From positions 896,001 through 960,000 of the forward strand of contig CH464491.1 of the NCBI GenBank assembly GCA_000002445.1: a stretch of 64,000 nt of DNA. The letters are read 5' to 3'. The notes beneath the pieces are model-generated. The model saw only the letters and a program-made list of their open reading frames with translations. It searched no databases and was not told the origin of the DNA. The DNA is from Trypanosoma brucei (Eukaryota). This document shows, one piece after another, positions 10,939 through 53,406 of the stretch. Numbering within the stretch: the first letter of the stretch is position 1; each line of letters starts with the position of its first letter. Both the position numbers and the translations under genes were made by a program.

Positions 10939-11007
10939 GTGGAACGATTAAGCAACGAGAAGAGGAGTTACGTAAATCAAACAAGCAAACTAAGGAAAGG
11001 AACCCCG

Positions 11008-17000: not shown

Positions 17001-20000
17001 GAAGAAGCGGTTCCGCTTCATGGATGAGGAGATTTCAATCACACCCTCGGTGGGTATGTGGATTACCATGAATCCGGGTTATGCTGGTCGTACAGAACTT
17101 CCCGAAAACATCAAATCGCTCTTCCGACCATGCGCTATGGTCGTCCCTGACCTCAAAAATATTTGTGAAATTATGTTGGCTGCTGAGGGCTTTGGTGACG
17201 CCAAGGATCTCGCATTGAAGTTTGTCACCCTTTACCGTCTAAACAAAGAGCTTCTCTCACCTCAAGACCACTACGATTGGGGTCTCCGTGCGGTCAAGTC
17301 TGTGCTTTACATTGCTGGTGCTCTGAAGCGCGGCGATCCGGACATCCCTGAGCGCAATGTATTGATGCGTGCGTTACGTGACACCAACATGGCTAAACTT
17401 AGCAAAGATGATGTGTACGTCTTTATGGGACTTATCCGTTCCCTCTTCCCCAACTTGGATGTGCCTAAGAAGGACAAACCAGAACTTGCCGCAGCTTGCA
17501 AGGAAGTATGCCGTGAGCAGGGGAACCTTCCGGGTGAAAACGATATCTTCATCCTAAAGTGCGTGCAGTACGAAGAGCTGTTACACGTGCGCCACTCCGT
17601 GTTTGTCCTTGGACCTGCGGGTAGTGGTAAGACGGAGTGCTGGCGATGCCTCCAGGGTGCTCTCACAAAGCTGCATAAGGATGAGTGGAAGGCGAAAGCG
17701 GTGGCATCTTGCCTTAACCCTAAGGCAATCACATCTAATGAATTGTACGGCTACTTTACGCCAAACAAAGAGTGGCGTGACGGTGTCTTGTCTACAATCT
17801 TTCGTGACTACGCATTGGAATCAAAGAAGAGACGCAACATGAAGTGGATCGTTTTGGATGGTATCATTGACGCAGAATGGATTGAATCGATGAACACTGT
17901 GATGGACGACAACAAGATGCTGACACTTGTGTCCAACGAGCGTATTCCGTTGACAGACTCCATGCGTATGATTTTTGAAGTTTCCCACCTTCGTAACGCT
18001 TCTCCAGCCACTGTTTCTCGCGCTGGTGTTGTATTCATCAATGAATCCGACCTTGGTTGGGGGCCCTTCAAGGACAAGTGGATAGCATCAAGGGACAGAC
18101 GTGAGGGAGCGATGTTTGACAGTCTGTTTGATAAGTACGTTCCGTTCGTTTTTGAATTCTGGAAGCGTAGCATGAAGCCCATCGTTGCTGTTATGGACAT
18201 CAATGTCGTACAAACTATCTGTTTCCTTCTAGAGGGTATATTTGGGCGGATGCAACAAGAAGAATTATCAAAGAACCCGAATGTATTCGATGTGTGTGAG
18301 AAGTACTTCGTGTTTGCCGTTATTTGGGCCTTTGGAGGGCCACTTCCGGGCTCAGACGGGCGCGTGGATCAGCGTATGAACTTTTCCAACCAGTGGAAGA
18401 AGGAGTTCCCTAATATGAAGATCAGTGACACAGGTTCTGTCTTTGACTTTTATATTGATAAGAAAAAGGATGAGAACGGGGTTTATCAGTACGAGTGGCG
18501 GCCATGGAGCGAGCTTGTGCACCCATACGTACCCGATCCGGACAGGCAGCTTTCCACGGTTTCTGTGCAAACTGCCGACGGTGTCCGCATGTCGCACCTC
18601 ATGAGTTTGCTTGTGGATAATGCAAAGTCCGTTATGCTCGTAGGAACTGCGGGAACAGGTAAGACGAACTTGATCATGTCAAAACTTAGATCGTTGAACG
18701 GTGAAGAAACACTTTTCCGTGTAGTTGCCTTTAACGCGCGAACGTCGTCGAGTGGTCTTCAAGCAGTGATGGAACAGTCATTGGAGAAGCGCTCGGGTCG
18801 TACGTATGGACCGTTTAATCGCAAGAAGCTTGTCTTCTTCCTTGATGACATGAACATGCCTGCACCAGACAAATATGGAACACAGGAGGCCATTGCTCTA
18901 CTGCAGCAACACGTCAACTACGGCTTCTGGTATGACCGTGTTAAGATTATTCAAAAGGAAGTGGTTGATTTGCGTTATGTTGGCGCAATGAACCCCAAAT
19001 CCGGTACGTTCACCATCTTAGACCGTCTGCTGAGGCACTTTGCTCTCTTCTCGACCAACATGCCTGAGCGAGCGGATTTGGTGAGTATCTACGGTCAAAT
19101 TCTTCAAGCGCACACAAAGGACTTCCCTCGCGATATACGCGACGCGTTCACCAAGATAATTACGAATGCAACTATCGAGTTGCACCATTTGGTGGCCAAA
19201 CAGTTCTTTCCGACCGCCGTTAAATTTCACTACCAATGGAACATGCGTGAAATGTTCAATATATTCCAGGGGCTCTGCAAATCTCATCCAAAGATTCACA
19301 CTACTCCCTTACAAATGGCTCGCCTCTGGGCTCACGAGTGCAATCGTACTTTCCGCGATCGTATGTCGGAGACAGAGGATATGAATCGCTTTGATGCGCT
19401 GTTTGTTGAGGTGATTTCCCGCGCCGGTTTCACTGACATCCAACCGAAGGATGTGCTCCAGGAGCCACTGCTCTGGGGTCCCTTCCTTACGTCTTCCGAG
19501 GGTGAAGAAAACGTGTACGAAGAGTTCACTGTGGACGCGGCACAATCATATCTCATCAAAAAGTTGGATGAGTACAACGATAACTACGCTCGTATGGACC
19601 TTGTTCTGTTCAACCAAGCTGTGGAGCACCTCTGTCGCATTGCTCGTATTACGTCGAATCCCCGTGGTAACGCGCTACTTGTTGGTGTCGGTGGTTCTGG
19701 CAAACAGTCGCTTGCACGTTTGGCTTCTTATATTAATGGTCACGACATTTTCCAGATTCTTGTGACGAGTAGCTATGGTATCGCTGAGTTCCGTACGGAT
19801 ATGCAGGAACTCTACCGCAAGTGTGGTTTGAAGGGATATCCTTTCGCCTTCATCATCACCGACACCCAGATAGTATCTGAAGACATGCTCGTTTACCTGA
19901 ACGATATGCTTGCTAGCGGAAATGTCCCAGAGATGTTTAACCAAGATGAGCGAGAAGGTATTGTGGGATCCATAATGAACGAGGTTAAGGTTGCCGGTTA

Positions 20001-23000
20001 TGCGGACTACTCCAATCCAGATACCTGTTGGGAGTACTTCATCAACAAGGTGAGGTCGCACTTGCATATCATTCTCTGCTTCTCCCCTGTCAGTAAACAT
20101 TTTGCTGTCTGGTGCCGGCAGTTCCCTGCACTCGCCAATACAACCGTCATTGACTGGTTTCTGCGTTGGCCAGAGCAGGCTCTCAAGTCCGTCGCAAATC
20201 GCTTCTTATCGAAGATCGAGCTTGGCGGGCCGGAGATGACAAAGAATATCGCTGACTTCATGGCTTTCTGTCAGGAGAAGGTGACGGAGATGTGTGAAGA
20301 ATATTATGTTCAGGAGAAGCGACATGCTTACACAACCCCCAAGTCGTTCTTAGAGCTTATCGCTTTTTATAAGGAATTGCTTGGGAGAAAAAGAGAAGAC
20401 CTCAACGACAAAACGCAGCGCTTGGTTAGTGGTATTGACAAAATCAAGGAAGCTGGAGTTCAGGTCGCGGCTCTGCAAGAGGTCCTCCATCGCGAGAGCC
20501 AAGAGGTGGAAGATGCGCGTCAGAAGACCGCAGCACTGATGGAAACTGTGGGAAGGGAGAAGGCAATTGTGGAGGAACAAAGTACGATTGCTGCAAAGGA
20601 GGAGGAGAAAACCAATAAAATCGTTGCAGAGGTCGAAACTTTTGAGAGAATGTGCTCTGAGGATTTGGCCAAGGCCAAACCGCTCGTGGAGGAGGCCCTC
20701 GCTGCCCTCGATACGCTCGACAAAGCGTCAATATCAGAACTTAAAAACCTTGGTAAACCCCCTGTGGACGTGCAAATGGTAGCCATTTGTGTTCGCGTGC
20801 TGACATCTAACCCGCGTGCTATTCCTTCTGTAAAGAACCGCACGTGGGCGGAGTGCAAAAAGATGATGAACCAGGTCGATCGTTTCCTAGCAGAGTTGAA
20901 GGGATTTGACGTGAACAACATCCCGCAGGTTTGCATTGACCAGATTCAGATGTATATCACAAACCCTGCGTTCGACCCCGAAATCGTGAAGACGAAGTCA
21001 TTTGCTGCAGCAGGTTTGTGTAAGTGGGCTGTCGGTATCAACAAATACCACTTAGTCCGGTGTGAGGTTCGCCCCAAGGAGGAGCGGCTTGCTGAAGCAC
21101 AAGAGCGCTTGCACCAGAGCAAAACTGCGCTCAAGAAAGTTCAAGACAAGGTGGCTGATCTCAATTCGAAGCTTCAGGCGCTGATTGCGCAGTATGATGA
21201 AGCAGTGGAGTCTGCCAACGCGATTGAGAGGAAAGCGAAGAAGACGATGCTAAAGATGGAGCTTGCTCAACGTCTGGTGTCTGGTCTTGCCGATGAAAGT
21301 GTTCGATGGGGAGATACTATTGAGCAGTTACGAAAGGCAGCGGACCTTCTGGTGGGTGATGTGCTATTGGGCGCTTCATTTGTTTCTTATATTGGACCAT
21401 TCTCAAAGGTCTTCCGTGAGCGTATCGTAACTGAGGAGTGGCTTCCTATGGTCAAGCAGTTGGGTATACCGATGACGGAGGACCTTGATATCACCATGAA
21501 TGTTCTCACATCCGAGGCGGCGGTTGCGTCCTGGAACAACGAGGGGCTTCCCTCGGATAAAGTTTCCACGGAGAACGGTGCCATTGTGACTAACTGCACG
21601 AGGTGGCCTTTGATCATCGATCCACAGCTTCAGGGCGTGAAGTGGATTCGCACGCGTGAGGAGAAGAATGGCCTGAAGGCTATCCAAACCACTCAGAAGA
21701 CGTGGCAACGCACCCTGCAGACGTGTATTGAGGAGGGGCTTCCTTGTCTTATTGAGTCGCTTGGTGAGTTCATTGAACCTGTGTTGGATGGTGTTCTCAG
21801 CAGGCAGACATTCAAAAAAGGTGGTCGTCTTTTCATTAAACTTGGCGCAACTGAGGTAGAGTATAACCCCAACTTCCGATTATTTTTGCAGACTAAGCTT
21901 GGTAACCCAGCATACGGTCCAGAGGTTAACGCACAGACGACTCTAATTAACTTCATGGTGACGGAAGTTGGCCTTGAAGACCAGTTACTTGCAGTTGTTG
22001 TTAACCAAGAGAGACCGGACTTAGAGAAGAAGCGGGGTGCATTACTTCGGCAAATGAACACTATGACAATTGAGCTACAGAAGTGCGAGGATGGACTTCT
22101 TTATGAGTTAACCAACGCAACCGGCGACATATTGGAGAACATATCCCTTATCGAGAACCTGGAGAACACGAAAAAGAAAGCAAAGGATATCAATATATCG
22201 TTTGCTCAGGCGGTATCCACTCAGAAAGATATTGCGCAAAACCGTCTCACATACACTTCTGTCGCTGTGCGTGGTTCGCTTCTGTTCTTCCAGATTGATC
22301 AGCTTTGGAAAATCGACCACATGTATCAGTACTCACTGGAGGCTTTCATGGTGGTGTTTAACAAAGCGCTGGCAAAGGCAGTACAACCAGAAGATAAGAA
22401 GGACGTGGCGAAGCGTGTGGAAAATGTCCTCCGATCCATTATGGAAACAGTCTTTGCGTATGTCTCACGTGGTTTGTTCGAACGCCACAAGCTAATCCTT
22501 TCCAGTTTGCTTACCTTCGCAATTCTTCAACAACAAGGTGAGATCGATTCGAAACAGCTGGACTTCCTTCTGCGTGGCAAAAAGAAGACGGGTATATTGA
22601 GACCTGAAACCGTTGTGGAATGGTGTCCTGAACCTAACTGGGCTGCAGTGCAAGCCCTTGCCGATGTGGAGGGATCAGTGCCACCGTTCAATCTGTTGCC
22701 CGGAGATGTCACGGAAAACAACCGTTGGAGGCAGTGGGCCGAAACCGAGAAACCAGAGGAGGAAAAGATGCCGTCAGAGTGGAAGAATTTAACTCAATTC
22801 CAACGCCTTCTCGTTCTCCGGTGTCTGCGTCCTGATAGGCTAACAGCTGCCCTCGAGACTTTCGTTTGCGACAGCATCGGCCGCTTCTTTGTTTCGGATC
22901 AGGCCGTTGATATATCTGTTTCTATCAACGAGTCTACAACGACGACACCGCTCTTCTTCATTCTTTCCCCCGGTGTAGACCCGGTTCGTGCGGTAGAGGA

Positions 23001-24984
23001 GGCTGGTCGCAAGCTTGGTTTCACGTATGATAATGAACGGCTCTTCAACGTTTCACTAGGCCAAGGTCAAGAGGTTGTAGCTGATCGGGCTCTGGAGCGG
23101 TGCTTTCTGCATGGTGGATGGGCGCTGCTGAATAATATCCACCTTGTCGAGAAGTGGCTTCGGGGTTTGGAGCGACGGTTGGATAGTTATGCAGAAATAT
23201 ACACTCGCATGGCACAATTACGAAAGGAACGTGACGAGAAGCGTGCTGCAGAACAAAAAGTGATGGAAGATTCTGGGAGTGAAAAGGCCACAAGTCTTGC
23301 TGGAGATGATGATGATGAGGCGCAAAAGTCTGTAGACGGTTCAACCGTCAAAGAGGAAAGGGCAGATGATGCTGAGGCGGATAAATCGAACGAAAGCAAC
23401 TCGAAACATTTGGGTGAAGAGGTGGCAGAAGGAAAGGAGGATGACGATGATGACATTCCCTTTGAAGGCCCCAAAGGACATCCGCAGTTCCGTGTATTCC
23501 TGAGCGCGGAGCCCTCCAACGTAATTCCCATCGGCATTCTTCAACGCTCCATTAAGCTTACATCCGAACCTCCTACTGGTATTCGCTCCAACATCGTTCG
23601 TGCATTGAGCAACTTCAGTGATGAGCCGTGGGAGAGGAGCGCAAAACCGACAGAGTTCCGTTGCATCATGTTTTCTATGTGCTTCTTCCATTCTGTCGTT
23701 GTGGAGCGTAAGAAATTTGGTCCGCTGGGCTGGAACCGTGTGTATCCTTATAATGCTGGAGACTTGACCACATGCTTGGAGGTTGCTGCCAACTACATTG
23801 AGGACAGGCCAAAGGTACCGTGGGAGGATTTGCAGTACGTTTTTGGTGAGATTATGTACGGCGGACACATTACGGACGATTGGGACCGTGTATTGTGTAT
23901 GGCATACCTGCGTACATTCCTTGTGCCCGAGTGTTGTGATGGACTTCAGCTGGCCCCAGGAATCGAAGTACCCGCTCCAATGAGTTACAACGAATACATC
24001 GATTGGTTGGTTAATGGCGAGGACTTCCCCGCGGAGTCTCCGCTCCTCTTTGGTTTGCATCCTAACGCAGAGATCAACTATAGAACTGTGCAAGCCGATG
24101 TCCTCTTTCGTACAATCAATGAACTGCAACCCAAAAAGCACGCCGGAGGAGATTCGCTCAGCCCTCAGGAAGTTGTCCAGCAGAAGATTGACGAGCTTCG
24201 TGAGCGACTTCCAGAACGGCACAATTTGCAGGACTTGTCGGAGCGGTTGGAGGATGAACGGTCGCCGCAGCAGCACGTGTTCTACCAAGAGTGCGAGCGC
24301 ATGAACGTCCTTATTTCAGCGCTGAAGGTATCACTGGAGGAATTAGATCTTGGTCTTAAGGGTGCCCTTTCGATGACCGCTGTTATGCAGACGTTGTTTG
24401 ATGAGATATATCTCGACAAGCTTCCAGCCGTATGGGAGAAGGTTTCCTTCCTCTCTTTGCGAGCTCTTGGGTCGTGGATGGAAAACTTCCTTCTTCGTAA
24501 CGATCAGTTGGTGAACTGGACCGGCGAACTGCAAACTCCGAAGGTAACGAACATCGCGCTCTTTTTCAATCCCATGTCTTTCCTCACTGCCATTATGCAA
24601 ACTACATCCATCGTAAACAGCTTCGATCTTGATCAGATGTCACTCGTGGTTGACGTTCTAAAGAAGTCTGCGGATCAGATCGAGACGAGTGCCCGTGACG
24701 GTTGCCATGTGTCCGGTCTCTCCATGGAAGGTGCCCGCTGGGACACGAGCACGTCTTGCATTGAGGAGAGCAGAATGAAGGAATTGTATCCAAAGATGCC
24801 CATCCTGACGATCCGTTCGTTACCACTCTCTAAAATCGACCGACGTGACCAGTACGAATGCCCAGTTTACAAGACACAGCAACGTGGACCCGGTTTCGTC
24901 GTCGGTTTCTGGTTGAAGACGAAGCAGCCAGCTAAGAAATGGACTATTGCTGGTGTGGGTCTTATCCTTGATGTGGTGGAGTAA
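11008..24984 (+). CDS. Axonemal dynein heavy chain, ~4,659 aa from the first ATG. The size suggests a two-headed class (outer-arm or I1-type).
   Basis: The ORF runs 10939-24984, but 10939 is GTG and the first ATG is at 11008 (MAKGDKEE). It has four P-loops: AAA1 [15 protein letters not shown], AAA2 [8 protein letters not shown], AAA3 GTAGTGKT and AAA4 GVGGSGKQS. The AAA1 context CYITLTQAL...FNCSDQMNY...[17 protein letters not shown]...[23 protein letters not shown] is the axonemal consensus, not the cytoplasmic one. The C-terminal [12 protein letters not shown] motif is present. A polypyrimidine tract plus AG lies just upstream at about 10880-10938. Confidence 0.9.
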   Translation: [4658 protein letters not shown]

Positions 24985-35547: not shown

Positions 35548-37707
35548 ATGGAGCGACAGCTTCGCGAACTCCTTGAGCAAGGAGGTTTGTCGCACACAAT
35601 TCAGGGGTTTGTCGATGGTGGTGTTCTTACCCTTCAGCAGCTTAAACAGCTCACCATGCAAGACTATCAATCTGTTGGTGTCATTGTCATGACTGACCGC
35701 CGAAAACTATTTGAGCTGATTCAATATATGAAGAGAGAGCAGGCGAACCCCCCCTCCGTATTGAACACCTCGGACGCGCCACGTGTACCCGAGCACACAC
35801 CTCAGGCCGTAACTGGTGCGCGAAACACAACGCCGAATTGCCGTAATGCGACACCCTCCAGCGCGCAACGCAAGGCGGAAAATGAGAACGCTCGCATGAA
35901 TGAAAGCAGGCAACTGTCAGGGGCGGGAGGGCGACGCGATCCACTTCATGTGATTGACGATATGGAACTCTCAGCCATGAAAATGACCCCAAACTCACGG
36001 CCACTCAGCCGTGTAGCACGCGCCTCCCCAACAGCCGCCACCCGTAAGCCTGGGGAGAGTGGAACTACTAAAAGAAAGGCAAGTCGCATCACAGTGGTGG
36101 TCCGCAAACGTCCGCTTAGCACGTCTGAGATCAATGATGGCTTATACGATATCCTTGCCACGGACCCTGACAACCTGCAGGCAATTGCCCTACTTGAGCC
36201 CAAACAGAAAGTTGACCTCACGAAATATATTGAAAAACATCGTTTCACCTATGATTTGGTTCTTGACGACAAGTACAGCAACCGCGATGTGTACGAGAAG
36301 GCATGCAAACCCCTTATTGAAACAGTGTTTGAGGGTGGGTGTGCCACTTGCTTTGCGTATGGACAAACGGGAAGTGGCAAGACATATACAATGCTCGGGA
36401 AGGGGGACCAGGAAGGTATATATCTGATGGCTGCACGTGATCTGTATGCTCGACTGGAAAGTGGGATGAGTATCATGGTTTCATTCTTCGAGATATATGG
36501 AGGAAAGTTGTTTGACCTGCTGAATGAGCGTGAGAAGCTTGCATGCCGTGAAGATAGTCGCGGTGTTATCAATGTTTGTGGCCTTACGGAACATCGTGTG
36601 GAGGATACGGGGCATCTCATGCGTGTAATCGACTACGGAAATTCCATTCGAGCGGCCGGCTCGACGGGCATGAATGCGGATTCCTCCAGGTCGCACGCTA
36701 TCCTTCACATAACGGTTTTGAATTCAAAGAACCGGTTCTTCGGTAGGTTCACCTTCATCGACCTCGCTGGAAGCGAGCGGGGTGCAGATACACTTGATAG
36801 CGACAGAACCACGCGCCTCGAAGGTGCAGAAATCAATAAGTCACTTTTGGCACTGAAGGAATGTATTCGTGCGCTGGACCAGAATCATCGGCACATTCCT
36901 TTCCGTGGTTCAAAGCTTACAGCCGTGCTGAGGGACTGCTTCACGGGGAACAGTCGCACTGTGATGATAGGCAATGTTAGTCCTGCAAGCGGAAGCTGTG
37001 AACACACCCTTAACACACTACGCTACGCTGATCGTGTGAAGGAACTAAAGAAAGACAAGTCGTCCCGCATCGCCGCCGAGGAAATCATGATTGGCCAGAT
37101 GCCAAGTGAAGAGATTGAAACACTTGGATTGAGCAGTAACTTTGCCCAAAGACGTGCCCGAGAAAAGAAGGCCGGCACCCGGTCCTCCAGTCATCTTTCA
37201 CAACGGGAACCAGGCACGCCTAACGCAAAGTCTCACAGCAGCTACGGCAGCGGCTATCGGCTCAAAGGGCAACATTCTCGCGTGTCAATGAGCTGCAAAG
37301 AGGAAGACTACCCGAACTTCTCCGACAGCATTCGCTCCGGGAAAGTTCCAAGTAGTGGAGGGACGAAGAGCTTCAACAGGGTGACACCAAAACACAGTCG
37401 TGTTGGCAGCGAAATATCGATCCGCGACGCTAGCCCGTATGAGATGACTTCTTTTGCGAGCGGTGATTCCTTAGACGAAGAAGAGGATAATACCATTCTG
37501 GGCCATCGCCGTCATATTGACGCAATGATGGAGTTATTGAAGCAAGAAATGACGGAATTGAATGGAGTAGAGATGCCTGGAGCCTCCATTGAGGTGTACT
37601 GCAAAAATGTTGAGAGCATTCTCAACCGTCAGGCGAAGAGTATTAGCAGTGTTAGAAATATGATAAGGCAGTTGCTAAACCGCCTGGAGTCTCGGCAACG
37701 CCGGTAA
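35548..37707 (+). CDS. Kinesin-13 family motor with an N-terminal SAM domain (KIF24-like architecture)
   Basis: 719 aa. Residues ~1-65 ([57 protein letters not shown]) look like a SAM domain. The central motor has the kinesin-13-specific loop-2 KVD finger ([25 protein letters not shown]), the P-loop [11 protein letters not shown], switch I SSRSHAIL and switch [10 protein letters not shown] central motor position is typical of kinesin-13. Confidence 0.85.
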
Positions 37708-39894: not shown

Positions 39895-42800
39895 ATGAGG
39901 CGAGTACATCAGATTCCCTGTAAAAAACTGTTTAGGCAGTTGGGGCGTAGGGGAATATTATCCACACCGCCATCGCCAGTGGAGTCAGCAGAACCCACAA
40001 CCATCCGCTCAAGGGGCTACGGACCCAGTAAACATTTACTGCGCGGTGTTGACGCGACACGCGGCGTCGTTGTGGAAGCAGCCCTCAGCCCAGCGGATGT
40101 TGAGATGCAGCGCCGCGTTCTTTCGATGGCGAATCCAAATGTGGCGATCCACGCCAAACTTGAGGGTGAGCCTTCACCCGTTCATTCTGGCACCAACTCC
40201 CTTCATGGTGACGACCAGCGTCTGGCCGACCGTGCAGGTGTTGCTTCATCGGAGCAGTTAGCCTCTGTGGCAACTGTTATATTGGATGAGGTGAAGGAGC
40301 AATTGCAGCTCAACCTCAGCGCTGCGGATGCCTCACAAGATAGTCGAGCAGCCACTGTAGTGAATGCCGTCGCGGAGTGCCTGCGGAATGAGGTGGACCG
40401 CCTCATTCACGCGAACCACACGCAGGAGTCGTCCATTACCCGAGTGTTGAGGGAAAATACAGACCTGATTTGCAAGCGCGTCGCCGATGTCATATGCTCG
40501 GAGCAGCTGAAAACACTATCATTCAAGGACGTAGGTCAACTTCCGCAGGTCATCAAAGAGGTGGGAACGTCCCTTGTGAGGTTAGAGAGCGCCTTGAAGA
40601 GTGCACTGGATTCGAGCTTTGGAAAAGACAAAAATCTCGAAGAAGTATTGGGAGATTTGCGCGAACACATTGTCTCTGCCATCGAGCAAGCCTCGCATTT
40701 CCAACAGGAGCGACTTCTCGCTTCTGTGAGTGATTTACTGGCCGACTGCGCCGATGCGCAAGACAGCAAGTCACGTTTGGCTCAGGCTGCGAGTCTGAAG
40801 GTAATCGAAAAGAACGTGAGGGATGCCATGTCACAGATGGTGGAGGACACGCAACATAAGGTCCAGTCTGTATTGCGTGACCTCCGTGGGAGTGCTTCGA
40901 CCTCTGATGCCGCTGGAAGTACGACGAACGTAAGCAGCGGTAACGAGGTGGCGTTCGAGCGAATTTTAGCATCTTACGGCGAACGTCTTGAAGAACTGCG
41001 TGAGTCAACAGCTGCGGCCGTTGACCTTAAGGAGCTTATGATGGAAATTCATAGCATGCATCAGACAAGTGCAGGAGATGTGAGTGAAGTCAAAAACCTT
41101 GTGAAGAAACTAAAGAGAGAATTGATAAGCGCTCTCCAACCCTCCAACACTGAAAACACTGAAGGCAGCACTGTGGAACGTAAGTCCAGTGACACAATAG
41201 ATTACAATGGGATTTTTGCGGATAAATTGGACGCATTGGCAGACGATGTAATATCAAGGATAGATGGGCGACTGAAGGAGCAGCACGCTGATGTGAGGGA
41301 ACTGTCGGCGAGGCTTCTCCAGCTTGAAGATGTGATCAAGAAAACTCCCCGTGCTGCTCTCCAGGTGGGGTCAGTGCCTGAGCTGAACGACGACCGGCTG
41401 CTGGCGTTGGCACAAAGTATCAGTGAGAGTATTTTATCATCTCTTCCCCCGCATTCCGCCCCCGCTGTAGAGGAAAAAGAGCAACAGGAGCCACCGCGAC
41501 CGAGCGTCAGCACAGCGGTTGCCACTACTGCACACACCTTTACAGCAACAGAGCTCGCGGAGGCTGTGTCAGCTGCTCTCACCCCGAGACTGGATGAATT
41601 GGCGGCAGCCATCCAAAAGAAAGTGGCACCTACCTCCACTGCCTCGGGCAACGAATACGACAACAGACACATGGGTGAAACACAACTCGTAACCGTCGCA
41701 CAAACGATATGTGAAGGAGTGCGGGAAGCAGTTAGGGAAAGTATGGCCCTTTACAAACCACCCGTCGCCTCACCACCCACCCCGGCCCCGGGAGCAGTTG
41801 TTGCACCAGCTGTTGACACGTCTGCCTTAGAACAGGCAATGGTGACGAAAGTGGAAGATCTCAAAAGATGCGTTATGGACGCCGTGCAGGAAATGGACCG
41901 ACCACAGGAAATTGATCTCTCGCCGTTCCGTACGTACCTCGATGATGTGCTGCGCAGCATGCAGACAACTCTGAGCAAGCAGCAGCAAGCGACACAGGAC
42001 AAGGTTGATGGTGTGGTTGAAGCGCTGGCAAAGAAGCTTCAGGATTACCAACACCAATTAGAGTCGAAACTTCAAAGGCAGCACCGAGATCAAGTGGAGC
42101 AGATACAGGTTGTGCGAAGGGCACAAGAGCAAGATATGAAAGCTGATGAAGAGACGTGGAAACAACGGATGTCCCGGAACCAAGAAGACGCCGAGCAAAG
42201 GACAAACGAGCAAAAGTCTGCTGTCACGGGGGCCATGCAAGAGGTGTTTCTGCAAGTCAGGCAGCGGCTGACAGAAGATGTTCGCACACTTCTGAAAGGT
42301 GAAGTGGCCGCTGCCCTCATACCACTCGATGACCTTTACAAAGAGTTACGTGAAAGTGGGCAAAAGTCGCGTACCGCCTTGGAGGCGAAGTTGCGTTCTG
42401 TCGAGGACACACTGCAGTCCGTCCTTGACTCTGAACGACACCGCTCAGATCGTCTACAGGCAACACTTGACGACGTTATAGCATGTATTAAAAATAACTC
42501 GGGTGAAGTGAGCGGTTCGGAAACCGAAGCGTTGAAGTCCCTTAAAAGGCTATTGGAAGACCTCGCTGAGCGCAACACCGCTACCGGAATGGAAATATGT
42601 TCTGACGTGAAGGCTTCTTTAGAACGTACAGAAGAACTTCACGTTCAAACTGCAGAGAAGATGTTGAGGGGGTTTGATACGCTGAAGTATGAGATTCACG
42701 AAGGACGGCAACAACTTGACCAGCTCCTATCGTCCAACCAGCAGAATAAAGATGTTGCACTTGCTGTCGAGGCCATGCGCACGAAACTGGACGAAGTCCG

Positions 42801-44400
42801 TTATTCCCTCGACTGCATTATGGCATCTGTCCGTGAGATGCAAGAACACCCCATGAGACAATTACAAGAGCCGCAGCAGCAGCAGCAGTCCTTACTTAGC
42901 GAAACTGAAGTGAAGAGTCCAATAGATGACAAGGTGTTGGAGCAGTATGAGCAACGACAGCGAGAGGCATCCGATTTAATTGCGTCGCGTCTCGAAACCC
43001 TCTCGGCAACAACTCGTGAGGTTCTTTCGCAACTCCAACGGCAGCAGCCACGAAGATCGGAGGAGGAGATGGGTTCGCAGCCGGCCGTAACCACAAATTT
43101 AAGTGTGGAGAGTCTGCAAGCTATGGAGGGTCGTTTAGGTGAACGCATGCAGGCATTGCAGGCTGCGCTTGATGAGCTGACAAAAGTCAGTGCCAGTGTT
43201 CCTCCTACAACAGAGGTTTTCAGGAAAGACGAGGTAGACGGTGTTGAGGGAAGCAAAAGCTTCATAAAGGAAGTTGATGAGCTCATGACGCTCGTGAAGT
43301 CGTCGCGAAGTGTACAGGCGAAGCAAATGTGGGAGAGGCTGAGCATCTTGCGCACATCTCTGGTTGATGTGAGTACGAAAAAAACTGGAGACACCAACAT
43401 TAAACAACTGTTGGGGGCTCTGGAGGAAAATCGTCTGAAGCTGCGAGAGGAAATGGGGGAAGCAGAGAGAGAATTGGTTATAAAAATTGATGCCGCAACA
43501 CAGAAAGCGGTAGAGCACTTTGCTGCTCGTATAGAGAGGGCCGTTAAGGCGTCAGCAGATGCGGGGCTGGGGCAGCTGCGCAACGATCTCAAAGAAAGTA
43601 GTGAGATATTGAAAGCACACCAGCACCAGTTTTCGTCGCAGCTGCAGGATAGAATGACTAACATAGAGAGAACAAATAGGGAGTGCGCCGCTGAGTTAAA
43701 AGAAAAGTTGCGGGACACCAGCAAGGAGTATCATAATGCTTTGGGACAGTTTGTGAAAAACGATATGATTGCAGCCCTGCGTAGTACTGTTAATGAGGCG
43801 ACTACCCAGCAGATGCGTACCTTCACGCAACAGTTCACTTGGCAAAAGGAACGAGAGGAAACGAACAAAGAGGCGGTGATGCGGAGCGTTCAACAGGTTT
43901 CCCAAGGAGTTGGCAAACTCCAATCAATGAGCAGTGAGGTACGCACAGCCGTAACCAGCAGTTCGGCAGGTGTCGTTCAGGAGGTGAGGAACGCACAGAA
44001 GGACCTCGCGGTGCTTTTCGAGAAACGGCTTGCTGCCGTGTTAGAGCAGCAGAAAAAGCAGCAAGTGGTTCAAGTATTGTCGCCTGTGCGAGTCGGGGAA
44101 GCCGATTCTTCAAACGGTATTCCAAGTGAGACCACCGACACGCCTTCGCTTGTCACGATGGTAAATCCACAGGGGGCGTCCCACCTTTCATGGTTTTTGC
44201 TGTCGCAATCGGTTGTGACTATCATCACCATCATGCTGTGCGCATACTTTTTATTTGCGGCCTTCCTTGTTGCCTTCGTGCCTATTCCACTTACTGATGA
44301 ATTTGCCTCACACATGGAGCAGGCAGCGGATAATGATGTCTCTGAAATTGCCCTCAAGAGGCCGTTAGTCTCACGTGTAGCGGACCGGGTAATTCTATAA
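39895..44400 (+). CDS. Hypothetical large coiled-coil protein (1,501 aa) with a single C-terminal transmembrane helix
   Basis: It is a clean 4.5-kb ORF with heptad-like E/K/Q/L-rich composition throughout. The hydrophobic stretch SWFLLSQSVVTIITIMLCAYFLFAAFLVAFVPIPL (about nt 44187-44292) is followed by a ~35-aa tail. The ORF length, the polypyrimidine tract upstream and the orientation matching its neighbours support it as a real gene. It has no recognisable catalytic domain. Confidence 0.6.
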   Translation: MRRVHQIPCKKLFRQLGRRGILSTPPSPVESAEPTTIRSRGYGPSKHLLRGVDATRGVVVEAALSPADVEMQRRVLSMANPNVAIHAKLEGEPSPVHSGTNSLHGDDQRLADRAGVASSEQLASVATVILDEVKEQLQLNLSAADASQDSRAATVVNAVAECLRNEVDRLIHANHTQESSITRVLRENTDLICKRVADVICSEQLKTLSFKDVGQLPQVIKEVGTSLVRLESALKSALDSSFGKDKNLEEVLGDLREHIVSAIEQASHFQQERLLASVSDLLADCADAQDSKSRLAQAASLKVIEKNVRDAMSQMVEDTQHKVQSVLRDLRGSASTSDAAGSTTNVSSGNEVAFERILASYGERLEELRESTAAAVDLKELMMEIHSMHQTSAGDVSEVKNLVKKLKRELISALQPSNTENTEGSTVERKSSDTIDYNGIFADKLDALADDVISRIDGRLKEQHADVRELSARLLQLEDVIKKTPRAALQVGSVPELNDDRLLALAQSISESILSSLPPHSAPAVEEKEQQEPPRPSVSTAVATTAHTFTATELAEAVSAALTPRLDELAAAIQKKVAPTSTASGNEYDNRHMGETQLVTVAQTICEGVREAVRESMALYKPPVASPPTPAPGAVVAPAVDTSALEQAMVTKVEDLKRCVMDAVQEMDRPQEIDLSPFRTYLDDVLRSMQTTLSKQQQATQDKVDGVVEALAKKLQDYQHQLESKLQRQHRDQVEQIQVVRRAQEQDMKADEETWKQRMSRNQEDAEQRTNEQKSAVTGAMQEVFLQVRQRLTEDVRTLLKGEVAAALIPLDDLYKELRESGQKSRTALEAKLRSVEDTLQSVLDSERHRSDRLQATLDDVIACIKNNSGEVSGSETEALKSLKRLLEDLAERNTATGMEICSDVKASLERTEELHVQTAEKMLRGFDTLKYEIHEGRQQLDQLLSSNQQNKDVALAVEAMRTKLDEVRYSLDCIMASVREMQEHPMRQLQEPQQQQQSLLSETEVKSPIDDKVLEQYEQRQREASDLIASRLETLSATTREVLSQLQRQQPRRSEEEMGSQPAVTTNLSVESLQAMEGRLGERMQALQAALDELTKVSASVPPTTEVFRKDEVDGVEGSKSFIKEVDELMTLVKSSRSVQAKQMWERLSILRTSLVDVSTKKTGDTNIKQLLGALEENRLKLREEMGEAERELVIKIDAATQKAVEHFAARIERAVKASADAGLGQLRNDLKESSEILKAHQHQFSSQLQDRMTNIERTNRECAAELKEKLRDTSKEYHNALGQFVKNDMIAALRSTVNEATTQQMRTFTQQFTWQKEREETNKEAVMRSVQQVSQGVGKLQSMSSEVRTAVTSSSAGVVQEVRNAQKDLAVLFEKRLAAVLEQQKKQQVVQVLSPVRVGEADSSNGIPSETTDTPSLVTMVNPQGASHLSWFLLSQSVVTIITIMLCAYFLFAAFLVAFVPIPLTDEFASHMEQAADNDVSEIALKRPLVSRVADRVIL

Positions 44401-45886: not shown

Positions 45887-48685
45887 ATGGCAGAGGTGAA
45901 GCTTCCGCGGCCGGGCCGAAGCCCCTCCTCGGGCAAAGTCACCGTCACCACCTCTTCAAAGCGCCAAGCAAAAAGCGCCCCATTCAAATTTCTCCGCAAA
46001 GATGAGGGACGGCTTTCTTACTCGTGCACACCAGAGTCCCCAGTTTCAGTGTGTGGTAATGTTTCCCACGGTAACAGTATGACTAACCGTGAGCTCGCTG
46101 CCATGGATAGGAACAGTTCCCGCTCACTCCGCGAAGCAATAGCCAATGATATGCGCAAAGGGAAAGCTAACGATCCTTTCGGCGGCTTTGAGGTCGCGGT
46201 TCCGAAGCGGGGACCACCACCTGGCGCATCGCCGCGGGAGGAACGTGGGATGTCTCTTGAAGGGTCGCAGTTGCATGACAACGTAAGTGTATCATCCCCT
46301 CCTGCTGCCGTGCAGCACACCTCTTCCCGCCTGGCTGTGGGAGACGCTAACCATAGCGAATCCATCGGGGACAAGTCCGTCAGCACGAAACGACTTGAAT
46401 CCCGTACTTCAGACGAGTCGGAAAGAACAGTAGAACCCCAGCCACAACAACACCAGCAGCTACAGTTGCAGCAACACCAACTGCAGCAGCAGCAACAAAT
46501 GCAGTTGCAACAACAGCTACAGCAGCAGCAACAGCTACAGCTTCAACAACAACAGCAACAACTGCAACTGCAACAACAGCAGCAGCAGCAAATACAACTA
46601 CAACAGCAACAGCACCAGCTACTGCCAAACCACAGTCACCAGATGCAATTGCAAACCCAACTCCCACAGCAACACCCTCCACAAGGCTATCAACAGCAGT
46701 TGCTGAATCACGGCCAGCAGTGGCAGCACTCGCAGGTGCAGGCGCAACCGCAGCCGACGCGACAGCGTGTGAGTCCAATGAACACCAACACTTTTTCGCG
46801 GAACATCGAGGAGAGTGAGTTGGGCGACTGGTGCCCCTCGCCGGTGCAACAACGTCGGTGGAGGAACGGGGAATCGGACAACGGACATACTCGTCGGTCG
46901 ATTGCTACCCGCTACGGTGACCCAGGAGAACTAGACGGTGAATATGTGAGTGGTGGAAGGAGCCTCCGCAACTATTTTCGACCTCCGCTTCCAGAATATC
47001 ATCAGCCACGTGAGGAGGAGGAGTTGGTGGGCCAGCTGGAAGAGGAATTGCGCGTCACGAAGGAGGAGCGATCCCGGTATTATCAGCTGCGCATGCAACT
47101 GGAGCGTGAGCGGCAGCGTTTCGAGGAATACCGCTCTGGAGTGGAACAGGACATGGAGGACGAACGGGTGCGGTTGGATGCCGCACGGGCTTCGGAGCAG
47201 CGCCAGGCAAAAAAGGACGTGAAGGTAGTGGAAGAGCGGTATAAATCTACTCTCGAACTTCTCAGGACAGAGCGTGATTCAAACACAAAGCTGACACAGG
47301 AAAACGAGATGCTGCGCCAGCAACTGGAGGTGACGACAGCACGGTTGCGTGAGTCGCAGAAGCTGCAAAAGGCGGAGACGAACCGGCTGCGACGTGAGAT
47401 TGAGTCTCTGACGCGGCGGAACGAAGAGCTGTTGGAATTGGCAAGAGAACAACAACTCACAGCATTAGAACGTGGTGAGACGCTGACACCACCACTGCTG
47501 TTGCACAGCGGCCCAAATATACGACATAAAGCTTCGGCTAACAGTAGTAGCGCTCCGAGGAGCGGTGAAGATGTATACGAATTGCATGGTAGTTCACTAC
47601 CCACTAGAAGCTACTCTTCTGAGCAGAATCGTTATCTGGACATTGTAGAGAGGGAGAGGAGACTAGCGGAGGAAGAGGAGCACGAGCGGAAACGGTTGGA
47701 AGCTGAGGATAGAAGACGTGCCGAGATGGAAGAAAGGCGAAGGCGCATTGAAGCCGAGGAAGCGCGGCGTGCTAAAGAGGAGGAGGAAAGGCGAAGGCGC
47801 ATTGAGGAGGAGGACCGTCGTCGCGCCCATGAAGAGGAGGAAAGGCGGAAGCGGGTTGAAGCCGAAGACAGGCGCCGCGCTGAGGAAGCGAAGCGCAAGT
47901 CTGCGGAAGCTGAAGAGAGGCGTCGTGCTGAAGAAGAGGAAAAGCGCAAACGTGCGGAAGCGGAGAACAGGAAGCGGGTTGAGGAGGACAAGGTTAGGCG
48001 CGCAGATGCGGAAGTTGCTCCGCGGCGGAAGGTAGATGCAAAGAAGGTTGTGCGGGAGGAGCGTTCGCAGGCGATCGACGAGGGCGCAACTAGCAAGAAG
48101 CTTGAGGCACGCCAGCAGCGGCGCTCCTCCGGTCATCCTGTTTTAACTCCTCGCGCGCAGAGCTCCAAAACAGCGAATTCTGCAGTAGCAACTGCCCGTG
48201 CAGCATCGCAGGCTTGCACCTACGCAACTCGCAAAGGACGCCGCGCACCCACTGCCAGCGAATTAACCGCGGACAATGAGCCCGTTCCGGATGAAGACTT
48301 TCCGAACGATACCGTCGTGTCGCAGACATCCCTAGGAGAAAATCCCAATAAGCGTGAAGTGTTGTACCGTAGCGGGAAGCGAGAGATACACTACACGAAT
48401 GGGACTCGCAAGATTATTCTTCCCTCGAGCCACGTGATGCTCTACTTCGCAAACGGAGACATCAAACGGACATTCCCCTCAGGGAAGAGCACATATTGGT
48501 ATGCTGTGGCGCAGACGACACACACACAGTATGCAGATGGAGCTCAGGTGTTTCAGTTCCATTCTACCGGGCAAGTAGAGCGCCACTTACCGGATGGAAA
48601 AAAAGAAATTCTTTACCCTGACGGTATCTACAAGGTTGTGCATCCAGACGGTAGGGATGAAACCATTTTCCCTGACGAAAGTTGA
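45887..48685 (+). CDS. SAS-4: SAS-4/CPAP-like protein. It has a polyQ tract, an E/R-rich charged repeat region and a C-terminal TCP10_C/G-box domain.
   Basis: The ORF track starts at a GTG codon (45875); the first ATG is at 45887 (MAEVKLP). The C-terminus REIHYTNGTRKIILPSSHVMLYFANGDIKRTFPSGKSTYWY...FQFHSTGQVERHLPDGKKEILYPDGIYKVVHPDGRDETIFPD shows the repeated Y/F-x-N/D-G beta-hairpin pattern of the CPAP/SAS-4 G-box (TCP10 C-terminal domain). Coiled-coil sequence precedes it. Confidence 0.7.
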   Translation: MAEVKLPRPGRSPSSGKVTVTTSSKRQAKSAPFKFLRKDEGRLSYSCTPESPVSVCGNVSHGNSMTNRELAAMDRNSSRSLREAIANDMRKGKANDPFGGFEVAVPKRGPPPGASPREERGMSLEGSQLHDNVSVSSPPAAVQHTSSRLAVGDANHSESIGDKSVSTKRLESRTSDESERTVEPQPQQHQQLQLQQHQLQQQQQMQLQQQLQQQQQLQLQQQQQQLQLQQQQQQQIQLQQQQHQLLPNHSHQMQLQTQLPQQHPPQGYQQQLLNHGQQWQHSQVQAQPQPTRQRVSPMNTNTFSRNIEESELGDWCPSPVQQRRWRNGESDNGHTRRSIATRYGDPGELDGEYVSGGRSLRNYFRPPLPEYHQPREEEELVGQLEEELRVTKEERSRYYQLRMQLERERQRFEEYRSGVEQDMEDERVRLDAARASEQRQAKKDVKVVEERYKSTLELLRTERDSNTKLTQENEMLRQQLEVTTARLRESQKLQKAETNRLRREIESLTRRNEELLELAREQQLTALERGETLTPPLLLHSGPNIRHKASANSSSAPRSGEDVYELHGSSLPTRSYSSEQNRYLDIVERERRLAEEEEHERKRLEAEDRRRAEMEERRRRIEAEEARRAKEEEERRRRIEEEDRRRAHEEEERRKRVEAEDRRRAEEAKRKSAEAEERRRAEEEEKRKRAEAENRKRVEEDKVRRADAEVAPRRKVDAKKVVREERSQAIDEGATSKKLEARQQRRSSGHPVLTPRAQSSKTANSAVATARAASQACTYATRKGRRAPTASELTADNEPVPDEDFPNDTVVSQTSLGENPNKREVLYRSGKREIHYTNGTRKIILPSSHVMLYFANGDIKRTFPSGKSTYWYAVAQTTHTQYADGAQVFQFHSTGQVERHLPDGKKEILYPDGIYKVVHPDGRDETIFPDES
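46440..46620 (+). repeat. Imperfect (CAG/CAA)n tract. It encodes the polyQ/QL-rich segment of the SAS-4-like protein.
   Basis: The translation is QQHQQLQLQQHQLQQQQQMQLQQQLQQQQQLQLQQQQQQLQLQQQQQQQIQLQQQQHQ. Confidence 0.9.
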
Positions 48686-52989: not shown

Positions 52990-53406
52990 ATGGTTGAGGT
53001 ACCGCGTAATTTCCGTTTGTTGCAGGAACTTGAGGCGGGGGAAAAGGGAACAGGTGTAAGCCAAAGTGTCTCTATTGGCCTCAGTGGGATGGATGACATT
53101 TATATGCATAATTGGAATGGCACTATTCTCGGACCTCCCGGTACCACATTTGAGAATCGCATCCTCTCACTAGAAATTCACTGCGATGAACATTACCCCA
53201 AACGCCCGCCGAACATTAAGTTCATCAGCCGTGTGAACCTGCCGTGTGTGAGCAGTGATGGTACTGTTGATAAAAACAAGTTTGCCGTCTTCAAGACTTG
53301 GGATCGCAACTTCACAATGGCGCATTGTTTGATGGAACTCCGTCGGGAGATGTCGCTTCCAGCTAATAAAAAACTACCGCAACCGGAGGAGGGTTCAACG
53401 TATTGA
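52990..53406 (+). CDS. Ubiquitin-conjugating enzyme E2 variant (UEV1/MMS2-like; catalytically inactive partner of Ubc13)
   Basis: 138 aa. VPRNFRLLQELEAGEKG...WNGTILGPPGTTFENRILSLEIHCDEHYPKRPPNIKFISRVNLP...KTWDRNFTMAHCLMELRREM...KLPQPEEGSTY aligns along its whole length with UEV1/MMS2. It lacks the HPN plus catalytic Cys of active E2 enzymes. Confidence 0.88.
   Translation: MVEVPRNFRLLQELEAGEKGTGVSQSVSIGLSGMDDIYMHNWNGTILGPPGTTFENRILSLEIHCDEHYPKRPPNIKFISRVNLPCVSSDGTVDKNKFAVFKTWDRNFTMAHCLMELRREMSLPANKKLPQPEEGSTY

What the first reader, a model, noticed from the sequence alone, without database searches (positions are those of the whole stretch)
48340..48685. C-terminal TCP10/G-box domain marks this gene as SAS-4/CPAP-like
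The last ~115 residues show the repeated Y/F-x-x-G, PDG and NG beta-hairpin motif of the CPAP/SAS-4 G-box. That is a single-layer beta-sheet that binds STIL/Ana2 in centriole assembly. It sits near an axonemal dynein and a KIF24-like kinesin in the same transcription unit. Kinetoplastid polycistrons are not operons, so co-location of these cilium and basal-body genes may be coincidence. It is still a notable neighbourhood.
Basis: partly seen in the sequence, partly recalled or inferred. Interest (0 to 1): 0.5.

Follow-up and report, generated by a model that had tools for sequence, protein, structure and literature searches.

The report
Known trypanosome SAS-4/CPAP gene (TbSAS-4)
The flagged stretch really is the C-terminal G-box of the Trypanosoma brucei SAS-4/CPAP homologue, a gene named TbSAS-4 and studied in 2015, so the reading is right but not new.

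Summary
The last ~112 residues of the ORF at 45887-48685 (+) are a G-box/TCP10_C domain. Pfam PF07202 scores 54.2 bits on the full protein and 72.2 on the domain, against a cut-off of 36. The zebrafish CPAP G-box matches at E=3.5e-35. The AlphaFold2 model (pLDDT 91.7) has 13 consecutive strands and overlays CPAP G-box crystal structures at 1.0-1.9 A.

The 932-aa protein is 100% identical to T. brucei TREU927 XP_828412.1. I equate it with TbSAS-4 (Tb927.11.3300) from its mass (107.9 vs 108 kDa) and domain. TbSAS-4 was published in 2015.

Seven of the eight CPAP residues that contact STIL are identical. An N-terminal FLRKDEG motif resembles CPAP's tubulin-binding SAC motif, with modest statistical support. 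A conserved coiled coil lies between them. The architecture is therefore CPAP-like, not TCP10-like.

Three caveats apply:
- The G-box is a short form that ends ~70 residues before the vertebrate one. This is shared with diplonemids, Naegleria and Hexamita.
- Published work places TbSAS-4 at the tip of the flagellum attachment zone and reports it is not at the basal body. TrypTag does see it at the basal body.
- I could not check whether kinetoplastids have a STIL/Ana2.

The dynein and kinesin-13 neighbours are real, but unrelated genes lie between them, so there is no functional cluster. Novelty: already known. Interest: low.

The parts
45887..48685 (+). Complete CDS of TbSAS-4 (932 aa, 107.9 kDa). 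The true ATG is at 45887, not the GTG at 45875 that the bacterial ORF caller listed.
   Evidence: ORF. ATG read directly. The 932-aa product is 100% identical over its full length to T. brucei TREU927 XP_828412.1/EAN79300.1. Mass computed. It matches the 108 kDa listed for Tb927.11.3300 (TbSAS4, 'T-complex protein 10 C terminus') in PMC4827413.
45980..46021 (+). N-terminal SAC-like motif, residues 32-45 (PFKFLRKDEGRLSY). It is a candidate tubulin-binding motif matching CPAP 374-385 (PFLKRGEGLARF).
   Evidence: It is invariant in trypanosomatid orthologues. The pattern F[LIMV][KR][KR]x[EQDSN]G appears in about 100 of the collected G-box proteins, and all printed sites lie N-terminal to the G-box. 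Only 223 of 200,000 shuffles of TbSAS-4 contain it. hhalign aligns it in register with P=5e-4 and probability 31%. A metazoan-only HMM does not score it above shuffled sequences. Human F375, K377, R378 and F385 are the tubulin-contact residues. They correspond to Tb F35, R37, K38 and Y45.
46112..46222 (+). Block conserved across Euglenozoa, residues 76-112. It contains a short helix (SLREAIANDMRK) and a proline-rich motif, VAVPKRGPPP.
   Evidence: Conserved in kinetoplastids, and in Papus and diplonemids. AF2 predicts helix 81-92 with pLDDT ~73. PKRGPPP at 106-112 is the only P[KR]xxPxP site in the protein, and 2.2% of shuffles contain one.
46439..46622 (+). Poly-glutamine tract encoded by CAG/CAA repeats, roughly residues 185-245. 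It is expanded in the T. brucei group.
   Evidence: Tandem repeats. Far shorter in T. cruzi and T. grayi and only partly present in T. vivax (alignment). AF2 models it as helix 189-242.
47006..47470 (+). Conserved long helix, residues 374-528. It is the presumed dimerising coiled coil, as in CPAP.
   Evidence: Many invariant columns. AF2 predicts a helix at pLDDT ~90. Dimerisation is inferred from CPAP (PMC3824074).
47618..47998 (+). Glu/Arg/Lys-rich repeat helix, residues 578-704. It looks like a single alpha-helix spacer.
   Evidence: 27- and 54-nt tandem repeats. The number of repeat units varies between species. AF2 predicts helix 578-704.
48314..48676 (+). G-box / TCP10_C domain. The 13 predicted strands cover residues 810-927. 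The homology-defined core covers residues 819-930. The protein ends 2 residues later.
48446..48580 (+). Proline-motif-binding edge of the G-box: F854, Y870, Y872, H879, Q881, F891, Q896, E898. These correspond to zebrafish CPAP F978, Y994, Y996, H1003, T1005, F1015, Q1019 and E1021. E898 corresponds to the microcephaly residue, human E1235.
   Evidence: Contact residues taken from Cottee 2013. Mapping from the alignments. Seven of eight are identical. All are near-invariant across 165 G-box proteins, including 30 of euglenozoan type.

Best explanation
The ORF at 45887-48685 encodes TbSAS-4 (Tb927.11.3300), the kinetoplastid orthologue of SAS-4/CPAP/CENPJ. The flagged stretch is its C-terminal G-box.

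Shown here:
- The domain is a true G-box by sequence and by predicted structure.
- It is a short, 13-strand form.
- It keeps the aromatic and acidic edge that in animals grips the PRxxPxP motif of STIL/Ana2.
- The rest of the protein has a CPAP-like layout: an N-terminal SAC-like motif, a conserved long helix, a charged spacer helix, then the G-box.

Inferred:
- The protein dimerises through the coiled coil.
- It touches tubulin or microtubules through the N-terminal motif.
- It uses the G-box edge to hold a proline-rich partner, linking microtubules to a scaffold.

From the literature, not tested here:
- Its depletion gives epimastigote-like cells.
- So the ancestral module seems to act at several microtubule-organising sites, not only in centriole assembly.
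For: Identity:
- 100% identical to T. brucei XP_828412.1.
- The mass and domain match the Tb927.11.3300 entry.

G-box:
- Pfam 54.2 and 72.2 bits against a cut-off of 36.
- CPAP 4bxp at E=3.5e-35.
- AF2 pLDDT 91.7 with 13 strands.
- Foldseek top 11 hits are all CPAP or Sas-4 G-boxes, with rmsd 1.0-1.9 A for the zebrafish ones.

Binding edge:
- 7 of 8 STIL-contact residues are identical, and they are near-invariant across the family.

Architecture:
- SAC-like motif.
- Helices 374-528 and 578-704.

Named relatives:
- 'Centromere protein J' or 'Spindle assembly abnormal 4' in T. grayi and T. cruzi.
- CENPJ in bat, lizard and Pelomyxa.

Biology:
- FAZ-tip location and TbPLK proximity.
- Epimastigote-like cells on depletion.
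- Basal body plus subpellicular array in TrypTag.
Against: - Support for the SAC motif is modest and partly post hoc. A metazoan-only HMM does not score it above shuffled sequences. The hhalign test used alignments chosen by the motif itself.
- No LID or A5N/MBD counterpart was found.
- The two localisation sources disagree about the basal body.
- No binding partner for the G-box was identified here.
- The primary TbSAS-4 paper could not be read. Its findings are cited second-hand.
Confidence: 0.9

Rival explanations
1. It is a canonical centriolar SAS-4. Its G-box binds a STIL/Ana2-type protein at the pro-basal body and is needed for basal-body assembly.
For: The STIL-contact residues are conserved 7 of 8, including the microcephaly glutamate. 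The architecture is CPAP-like. TrypTag reports basal-body signal.
Against: The group that characterised the protein states it is not at the basal body and has a distinct function. Reviews list it at the anterior FAZ tip. Its knock-down phenotype is a change in FAZ length and morphology. To my knowledge no STIL/Ana2 orthologue has been recognised outside opisthokonts (Carvalho-Santos 2010 and Hodges 2010, recalled from memory and not checked here).
Confidence: 0.25
2. The resemblance is superficial. The tail is a generic beta-hairpin repeat such as MORN, or a non-centriolar TCP10-like paralogue.
For: Foldseek also lists T. brucei MORN1 and other repeat sheets at weaker scores (ranks 12 and below).
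Against: Those hits have E >= 2e-5, about 15% identity and TM ~0.3. The CPAP hits have 45-47% identity and rmsd of 1-2 A. Sequence E-values reach 1e-35. The protein has a long coiled coil and a SAC-like motif. From memory, not tested here, mammalian TCP10/TCP10L are short and lack a SAC motif. Only one such protein per trypanosomatid species appeared among the hits.
Confidence: 0.01
3. The dynein, kinesin-13 and SAS-4 genes form a functionally meaningful cilium and basal-body cluster within one transcription unit.
For: All three lie on the + strand within 38 kb.
Against: The same strand also carries a CCT chaperonin subunit, a family-A DNA polymerase, squalene epoxidase, a UEV-like protein, a RagA GTPase and an RRM protein between and around them. 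Kinetoplastid polycistrons are not co-regulated operons, which is general knowledge. A large share of T. brucei genes are cytoskeletal or flagellar, so 3 of 11 is unremarkable. That last point is inference, not computed.
Confidence: 0.03

Closest known systems
TbSAS-4 (Tb927.11.3300), Trypanosoma brucei; Hu, Zhou and Li 2015, J Biol Chem 290:30453
   Same: It is the same gene. The protein sequence is identical to the TREU927 entry. The 108 kDa mass and the TCP10_C domain match.
   Different: Nothing differs. I could not read the paper, so I cannot tell whether it already describes the short G-box, the conserved STIL-contact residues or the N-terminal SAC-like motif.
Vertebrate CPAP/CENPJ (zebrafish G-box structures 4BXP, 4BXR, 4LD1; human MCPH6)
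   Same: The G-box is 45-47% identical with the same single-sheet fold. Seven of eight STIL-contact residues are identical, including the equivalent of E1235. It has a FLKRGEG-type motif and a coiled coil upstream of the G-box.
   Different: - The trypanosome G-box ends ~69 residues earlier, with 13 predicted strands against 17 in zebrafish.
- The SAC-like motif sits at residue 32 rather than ~374, with no room for a LID before it.
- No A5N/MBD match was found.
- The reported location is the FAZ tip.
Drosophila Sas-4 (4MPZ, 4BY2 with the Ana2 peptide)
   Same: G-box homology at E~2e-20 with the same fold.
   Different: It is more distant than zebrafish CPAP, at 28-32% identity. Sas-4 binds Ana2 and tethers pericentriolar material. 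Neither function is shown in trypanosomes.
Mammalian TCP10 / TCP10L
   Same: They share the Pfam TCP10_C domain.
   Different: From memory, not tested here, they are short mammal-specific paralogues without a SAC motif or a long coiled coil. The trypanosome protein has the CPAP-type layout.

Membership tests
SAS-4/CPAP/CENPJ | C-terminal G-box (Pfam PF07202 TCP10_C) above the curated threshold | tested here: met
   54.2 bits on the full-length protein and 72.2 bits on the last 115 aa, against a cut-off of 36.
SAS-4/CPAP/CENPJ | The G-box folds as one open, single-layer antiparallel beta sheet | tested here: met
   This is a prediction only. AF2 gives pLDDT 91.7 and 13 consecutive strands. Foldseek aligns it to 4bxr, 4ld1 and 4lzf at rmsd 1.0-1.9 A over 100-111 columns.
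SAS-4/CPAP/CENPJ | Conserved residues on the edge that binds the STIL/Ana2 proline motif | tested here: met
   F978, Y994, Y996, H1003, F1015, Q1019 and E1021 are identical, and T1005 is Q. Actual binding was not tested.
SAS-4/CPAP/CENPJ | Full-length G-box of ~17 strands, matching the proposed ~8 nm fibril repeat | tested here: not met
   The protein ends 2 residues after the point where vertebrate CENPJ continues for 68-71 residues. It has 13 predicted strands against 17. The short form is shared by diplonemids, Papus, Naegleria and Hexamita. It is therefore a lineage variant and not grounds for exclusion.
SAS-4/CPAP/CENPJ | Coiled-coil dimerisation region upstream of the G-box | tested here: met
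   A conserved helix at 374-528 has pLDDT ~90. The oligomeric state cannot be tested here.
SAS-4/CPAP/CENPJ | PN2-3 tubulin-binding region: the SAC motif | tested here: inconclusive
   FLRKDEG..Y at residues 35-45 fits the family-wide FL[KR][KR]GEG..F motif. Only 0.11% of shuffles contain it. hhalign gives P=5e-4 and probability 31%. A metazoan-only HMM gives no signal.
SAS-4/CPAP/CENPJ | PN2-3 LID segment and the A5N/MBD microtubule-binding domain | tested here: inconclusive
   No match appeared with phmmer against PDB or with hhalign. Only 31 residues precede the SAC-like motif. These regions are poorly conserved, so absence is not shown.
SAS-4/CPAP/CENPJ | Orthology: the best named relatives are CPAP/CENPJ, with one copy per genome | tested here: met
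   Named hits are CENPJ or SAS-4. BLASTP to bat CENPJ gives E=1e-28. There is one hit per trypanosomatid species. The T. brucei proteome could not be scanned directly for paralogues.
SAS-4/CPAP/CENPJ | Location at the centriole or basal body and a requirement for its assembly | not testable with these tools
   The literature conflicts. One source says it is not at the basal body and lies at the FAZ tip. [quoted passage not shown]
TCP10/TCP10L (mammalian paralogues) | A short protein consisting mainly of the TCP10_C domain, without a SAC motif or a long coiled coil | tested here: not met
   The protein is 932 aa with a SAC-like motif and helices of 155 and 127 residues. The definition of this family is from memory.

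The most novel reading that the evidence does not exclude
The proline-motif-binding edge of the G-box is intact across Euglenozoa. To my knowledge no STIL/Ana2 has been recognised there. TbSAS-4 itself carries a single, conserved P[KR]xxPxP motif (PKRGPPP, residues 106-112) that fits the STIL CR2 consensus PRxxPxP. The most novel reading is that this motif is the G-box ligand. It could act in cis as auto-inhibition, or in trans as head-to-tail self-assembly, replacing STIL in this lineage. The AF2 full-length model gave no support, with pLDDT ~35-38 at the motif.
Probability: 0.08. Interest if true: 0.55.

Novelty: already known. Interest (0 to 1): 0.15.

Why it matters
As a gene identification it adds nothing. 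TbSAS-4 has been annotated, named, localised and knocked down.

It is still a useful positive control for the first-stage reader, which recognised a G-box from raw nucleotides at nearly exact coordinates.

Three side observations may interest centriole biologists:
- The STIL-binding edge is fully conserved in a lineage where the protein is reported away from the basal body. To my knowledge no STIL is recognised there.
- A 13-strand short G-box is the norm in Euglenozoa, Naegleria and Hexamita. It would not give the ~8 nm fibril repeat proposed as a centriole ruler from the zebrafish structure.
- The SAC-like tubulin motif sits at the extreme N-terminus.

Each of these can be tested with simple biochemistry.

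Tried and rejected
- The finding's start coordinate is out of frame. I corrected it to 48338/48341.
- phmmer of the N-terminal 100 aa against PDB found no CPAP PN2-3 chain.
- An HMM built only from metazoan SAC windows did not score the trypanosome motif above shuffled sequences. The SAC claim therefore stays 'inconclusive'.
- A second word-indexed homologue search, using the G-box alone, returned only 3 hits. I used the exhaustive representative search instead.
- AF2 on the full-length protein did not give confident structure to the PKRGPPP motif or to the SAC motif. The self-ligand idea is unsupported.
- The primary TbSAS-4 paper (PMC4683267) and Hodges 2010 are not held. The statement that STIL/Ana2 is absent from kinetoplastids therefore rests on memory.
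- Text searches for 'STIL' mostly matched 'still'.
- The bacterial promoter/terminator scan, Rfam and tRNA scans were uninformative.
- Rejected: chance resemblance, a MORN-like repeat, a TCP10 paralogue, and a functional gene cluster (see rival explanations).
Full report
**What is at the coordinates.** The finding lies at the 3' end of a + strand ORF. The bacterial ORF caller starts it at a GTG at 45875. The first ATG is at 45887. From there the product is 932 aa and is 100% identical over its full length to T. brucei brucei TREU927 XP_828412.1/EAN79300.1. Identical or near-identical copies occur in T. b. gambiense and T. equiperdum. The window is therefore Trypanozoon DNA, and the longest contig carrying the protein is 5.26 Mb. 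The computed mass is 107.9 kDa. A review table lists Tb927.11.3300 as 'TbSAS4', 108 kDa, 'T-complex protein 10 C terminus', at the anterior tip of the FAZ filament. I equate the two on that basis. I could not retrieve the TriTrypDB record itself.

**Checking the observation.**
- [YF]xxG occurs six times in the last 115 residues and twice in the other 817.
- Counting H and L as well gives nine sites spaced 9-10 residues apart, or twice that.
- PDG occurs three times, only in the tail.
- One of 20,000 shuffles of the tail reaches the observed count.

Pfam Tcp10_C scores 54.2 bits on the whole protein and 72.2 on the tail, against a cut-off of 36. phmmer against PDB gives the zebrafish CPAP G-box at E=3.5e-35 and Drosophila Sas-4 at E=2e-20. 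BLASTP to a bat CENPJ gives 45% identity over 110 residues, E=1e-28. The homology-defined domain is residues 819-930, nt 48341-48676.

**Structure.** An AF2 model of the last 155 residues, built with a 12-sequence alignment, has mean pLDDT 91.7 and 13 consecutive strands. The top eleven Foldseek hits in the PDB are all CPAP or Sas-4 G-box entries. The zebrafish ones align at rmsd 1.0-1.9 A over 100-111 columns with 45-47% identity. The next hits (MORN1, polo boxes) have TM ~0.3. The single-sheet G-box prediction is therefore met.

**Is the ligand-binding edge there?** Cottee et al. list eight zebrafish CPAP residues that contact the STIL PRxxPxP peptide: F978, Y994, Y996, H1003, T1005, F1015, Q1019 and E1021. 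E1021 is the equivalent of the human microcephaly residue E1235. In the alignments these map to Tb F854, Y870, Y872, H879, Q881, F891, Q896 and E898. Seven of the eight are identical. Across 165 G-box proteins these positions are nearly invariant, and the 30 euglenozoan-type sequences keep them. Binding itself was not tested.

**A short G-box.** The trypanosome protein stops two residues after the aligned region. In the exhaustive search (1,767 hits at E<=1e-3), vertebrate-type CENPJ proteins continue for a constant 68-71 residues. Kinetoplastid-type proteins end 0-9 residues later, with few exceptions. The same holds for the prokinetoplastid Papus, a diplonemid (Lacrimia), Naegleria and Hexamita. 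The zebrafish domain has 17 strands, is ~75 A long and stacks with an ~8 nm repeat. The STIL site occupies its N-terminal half. The trypanosome form keeps that half and lacks the C-terminal part, with 13 predicted strands against 17.

**The rest of the protein.** Trypanosomatid orthologues share an invariant N-terminal FKFLR(K/R)DEG(R/H)L(S/A)Y. Full-length animal CENPJ proteins carry PFL[KR][KR]GEGLARF. In a bat CENPJ this is at 374-385. That numbering fits the human tubulin-contact residues F375, K377, R378 and F385 of the SAC motif.

The support for calling the trypanosome motif SAC-like is mixed:
- A loosened pattern occurs in about 100 of the collected G-box proteins, and all printed sites lie N-terminal to the G-box. 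It occurs in only 0.11% of shuffles of TbSAS-4.
- Diplonemid sequences have the canonical FLKRGEG.
- Profile-profile alignment puts the motifs in register at P=5e-4 with probability 31%. Those alignments were chosen using the motif, so the test is partly circular.
- A metazoan-only HMM gives no signal.

I call this 'probable, not proven'. No LID or A5N counterpart was found.

The full-length AF2 model (mean pLDDT 60) shows these elements:
- a short helix at 81-92;
- a poly-Q helix at 189-242, encoded by CAG/CAA repeats. The tract is far shorter in T. cruzi and T. grayi and only partly present in T. vivax;
- a conserved 155-residue helix at 374-528 with pLDDT ~90;
- a Glu/Arg/Lys-rich helix at 578-704, built from 27- and 54-nt repeats;
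- the G-box.

This is a CPAP-type layout.

**What it does.** The primary paper was not available. Papers that cite it say three things. [quoted passage not shown] It sits at the anterior tip of the FAZ filament. Its depletion produces epimastigote-like cells. It was also a proximity-labelling hit for the polo-like kinase TbPLK, scored as FAZ. [quoted passage not shown]

My best reading is that a conserved module has been deployed at more than one microtubule-organising site. The module consists of a dimeric coiled coil, an N-terminal tubulin-binding motif and a G-box that holds a proline-rich partner. The FAZ-tip role is the one with functional evidence. The dimerisation, tubulin-binding and partner-binding steps are inferred.

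**A speculative lead.** TbSAS-4 has exactly one P[KR]xxPxP site, PKRGPPP at 106-112. It lies inside a block conserved across Euglenozoa, about 70 residues after the SAC-like motif. It fits the STIL consensus and could be a self-ligand. A motif of this kind arises in 2.2% of shuffles. AF2 gives it pLDDT ~35-38. It remains only a lead.

**Neighbourhood.** The + strand carries, in order:
- a CCT subunit;
- an outer-arm beta dynein heavy chain. Its best match is a chain of PDB entry 9e5c named 'Dynein heavy chain, putative' (10,741 bits over the whole length), followed by Chlamydomonas ODA-beta and DNAH17/9. The true start is at 11008;
- a family-A DNA polymerase and squalene epoxidase;
- a kinesin-13 with an N-terminal SAM match just below threshold, at 21.7 bits against 23;
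- a 1,501-aa coiled-coil protein;
- TbSAS-4;
- a UEV-like protein;
- a RagA GTPase, an unknown protein and an RRM protein.

The mix of unrelated genes argues for coincidence.

**Verdict.** The gene is already known, so interest is low.

Noticed in passing
window 45980-46021 (TbSAS-4 residues 32-45): The N-terminal motif PFKFLRKDEGRLSY is invariant in trypanosomatids and resembles the CPAP SAC tubulin-binding motif PFLKRGEGLARF. It sits at the extreme N-terminus, not at ~residue 375, so there is no room for a LID segment before it.
   Followed up: partly
window 46112-46222 (residues 76-112): A block conserved across Euglenozoa: SRSLREAIANDMR..DPF..VAVPK[RK]xPPP. Its PKRGPPP is the only P[KR]xxPxP site in the protein and fits the STIL CR2 consensus recognised by G-boxes. 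AF2 did not dock it.
   Followed up: partly
window 48314-48685, and proteins P0013, P0043, P0046, P0148: The short G-box form, which ends ~69 residues before the vertebrate one, is shared by kinetoplastids, Papus, a diplonemid, Naegleria and Hexamita. A 13-strand sheet would not match the ~8 nm fibril repeat proposed from the zebrafish structure.
   Followed up: partly
window 46439-46622: A CAG/CAA-encoded poly-glutamine tract of ~60 residues. The tract is far shorter in T. cruzi and T. grayi and only partly present in T. vivax. AF2 models it as a helix.
   Followed up: partly
window 47618-47998: A Glu/Arg/Lys-rich helix built from 27- and 54-nt tandem repeats. The number of units differs between trypanosome species. 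It looks like a single-alpha-helix spacer of variable length between the coiled coil and the G-box.
   Followed up: no
window 52990-53406 (+): A small 138-aa gene with a ubiquitin-conjugating-enzyme fold (UQ_con, 57 bits), probably a UEV/MMS2-type variant. It sits in the otherwise empty, AT-rich 7 kb between TbSAS-4 and the RagA gene.
   Followed up: partly
window 10939-24984 (+): The dynein heavy-chain ORF is called from a GTG. A solved 4,658-aa dynein heavy chain (PDB 9e5c) begins at ORF residue 24, so the real ATG is at 11008. It is the outer-arm beta heavy chain.
   Followed up: yes
window 35548-37707 (+): A kinesin-13 whose motor is closest to KIF2C and Klp10A. Its N-terminal SAM match falls just below the Pfam threshold (21.7 bits against 23). 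The layout is KIF24-like, but the SAM call is marginal.
   Followed up: partly
window 39895-44400 (+): A 1,501-aa mostly helical protein with a hydrophobic C-terminal segment that looks like a tail anchor. It has no Pfam family above threshold. It lies immediately upstream of TbSAS-4.
   Followed up: no
literature (PMC5210500 versus PMC9981465): Published sources disagree on whether TbSAS-4 is at the basal body. The Li laboratory says it is not and places it at the FAZ tip. TrypTag lists the basal body plus the subpellicular array.
   Followed up: partly
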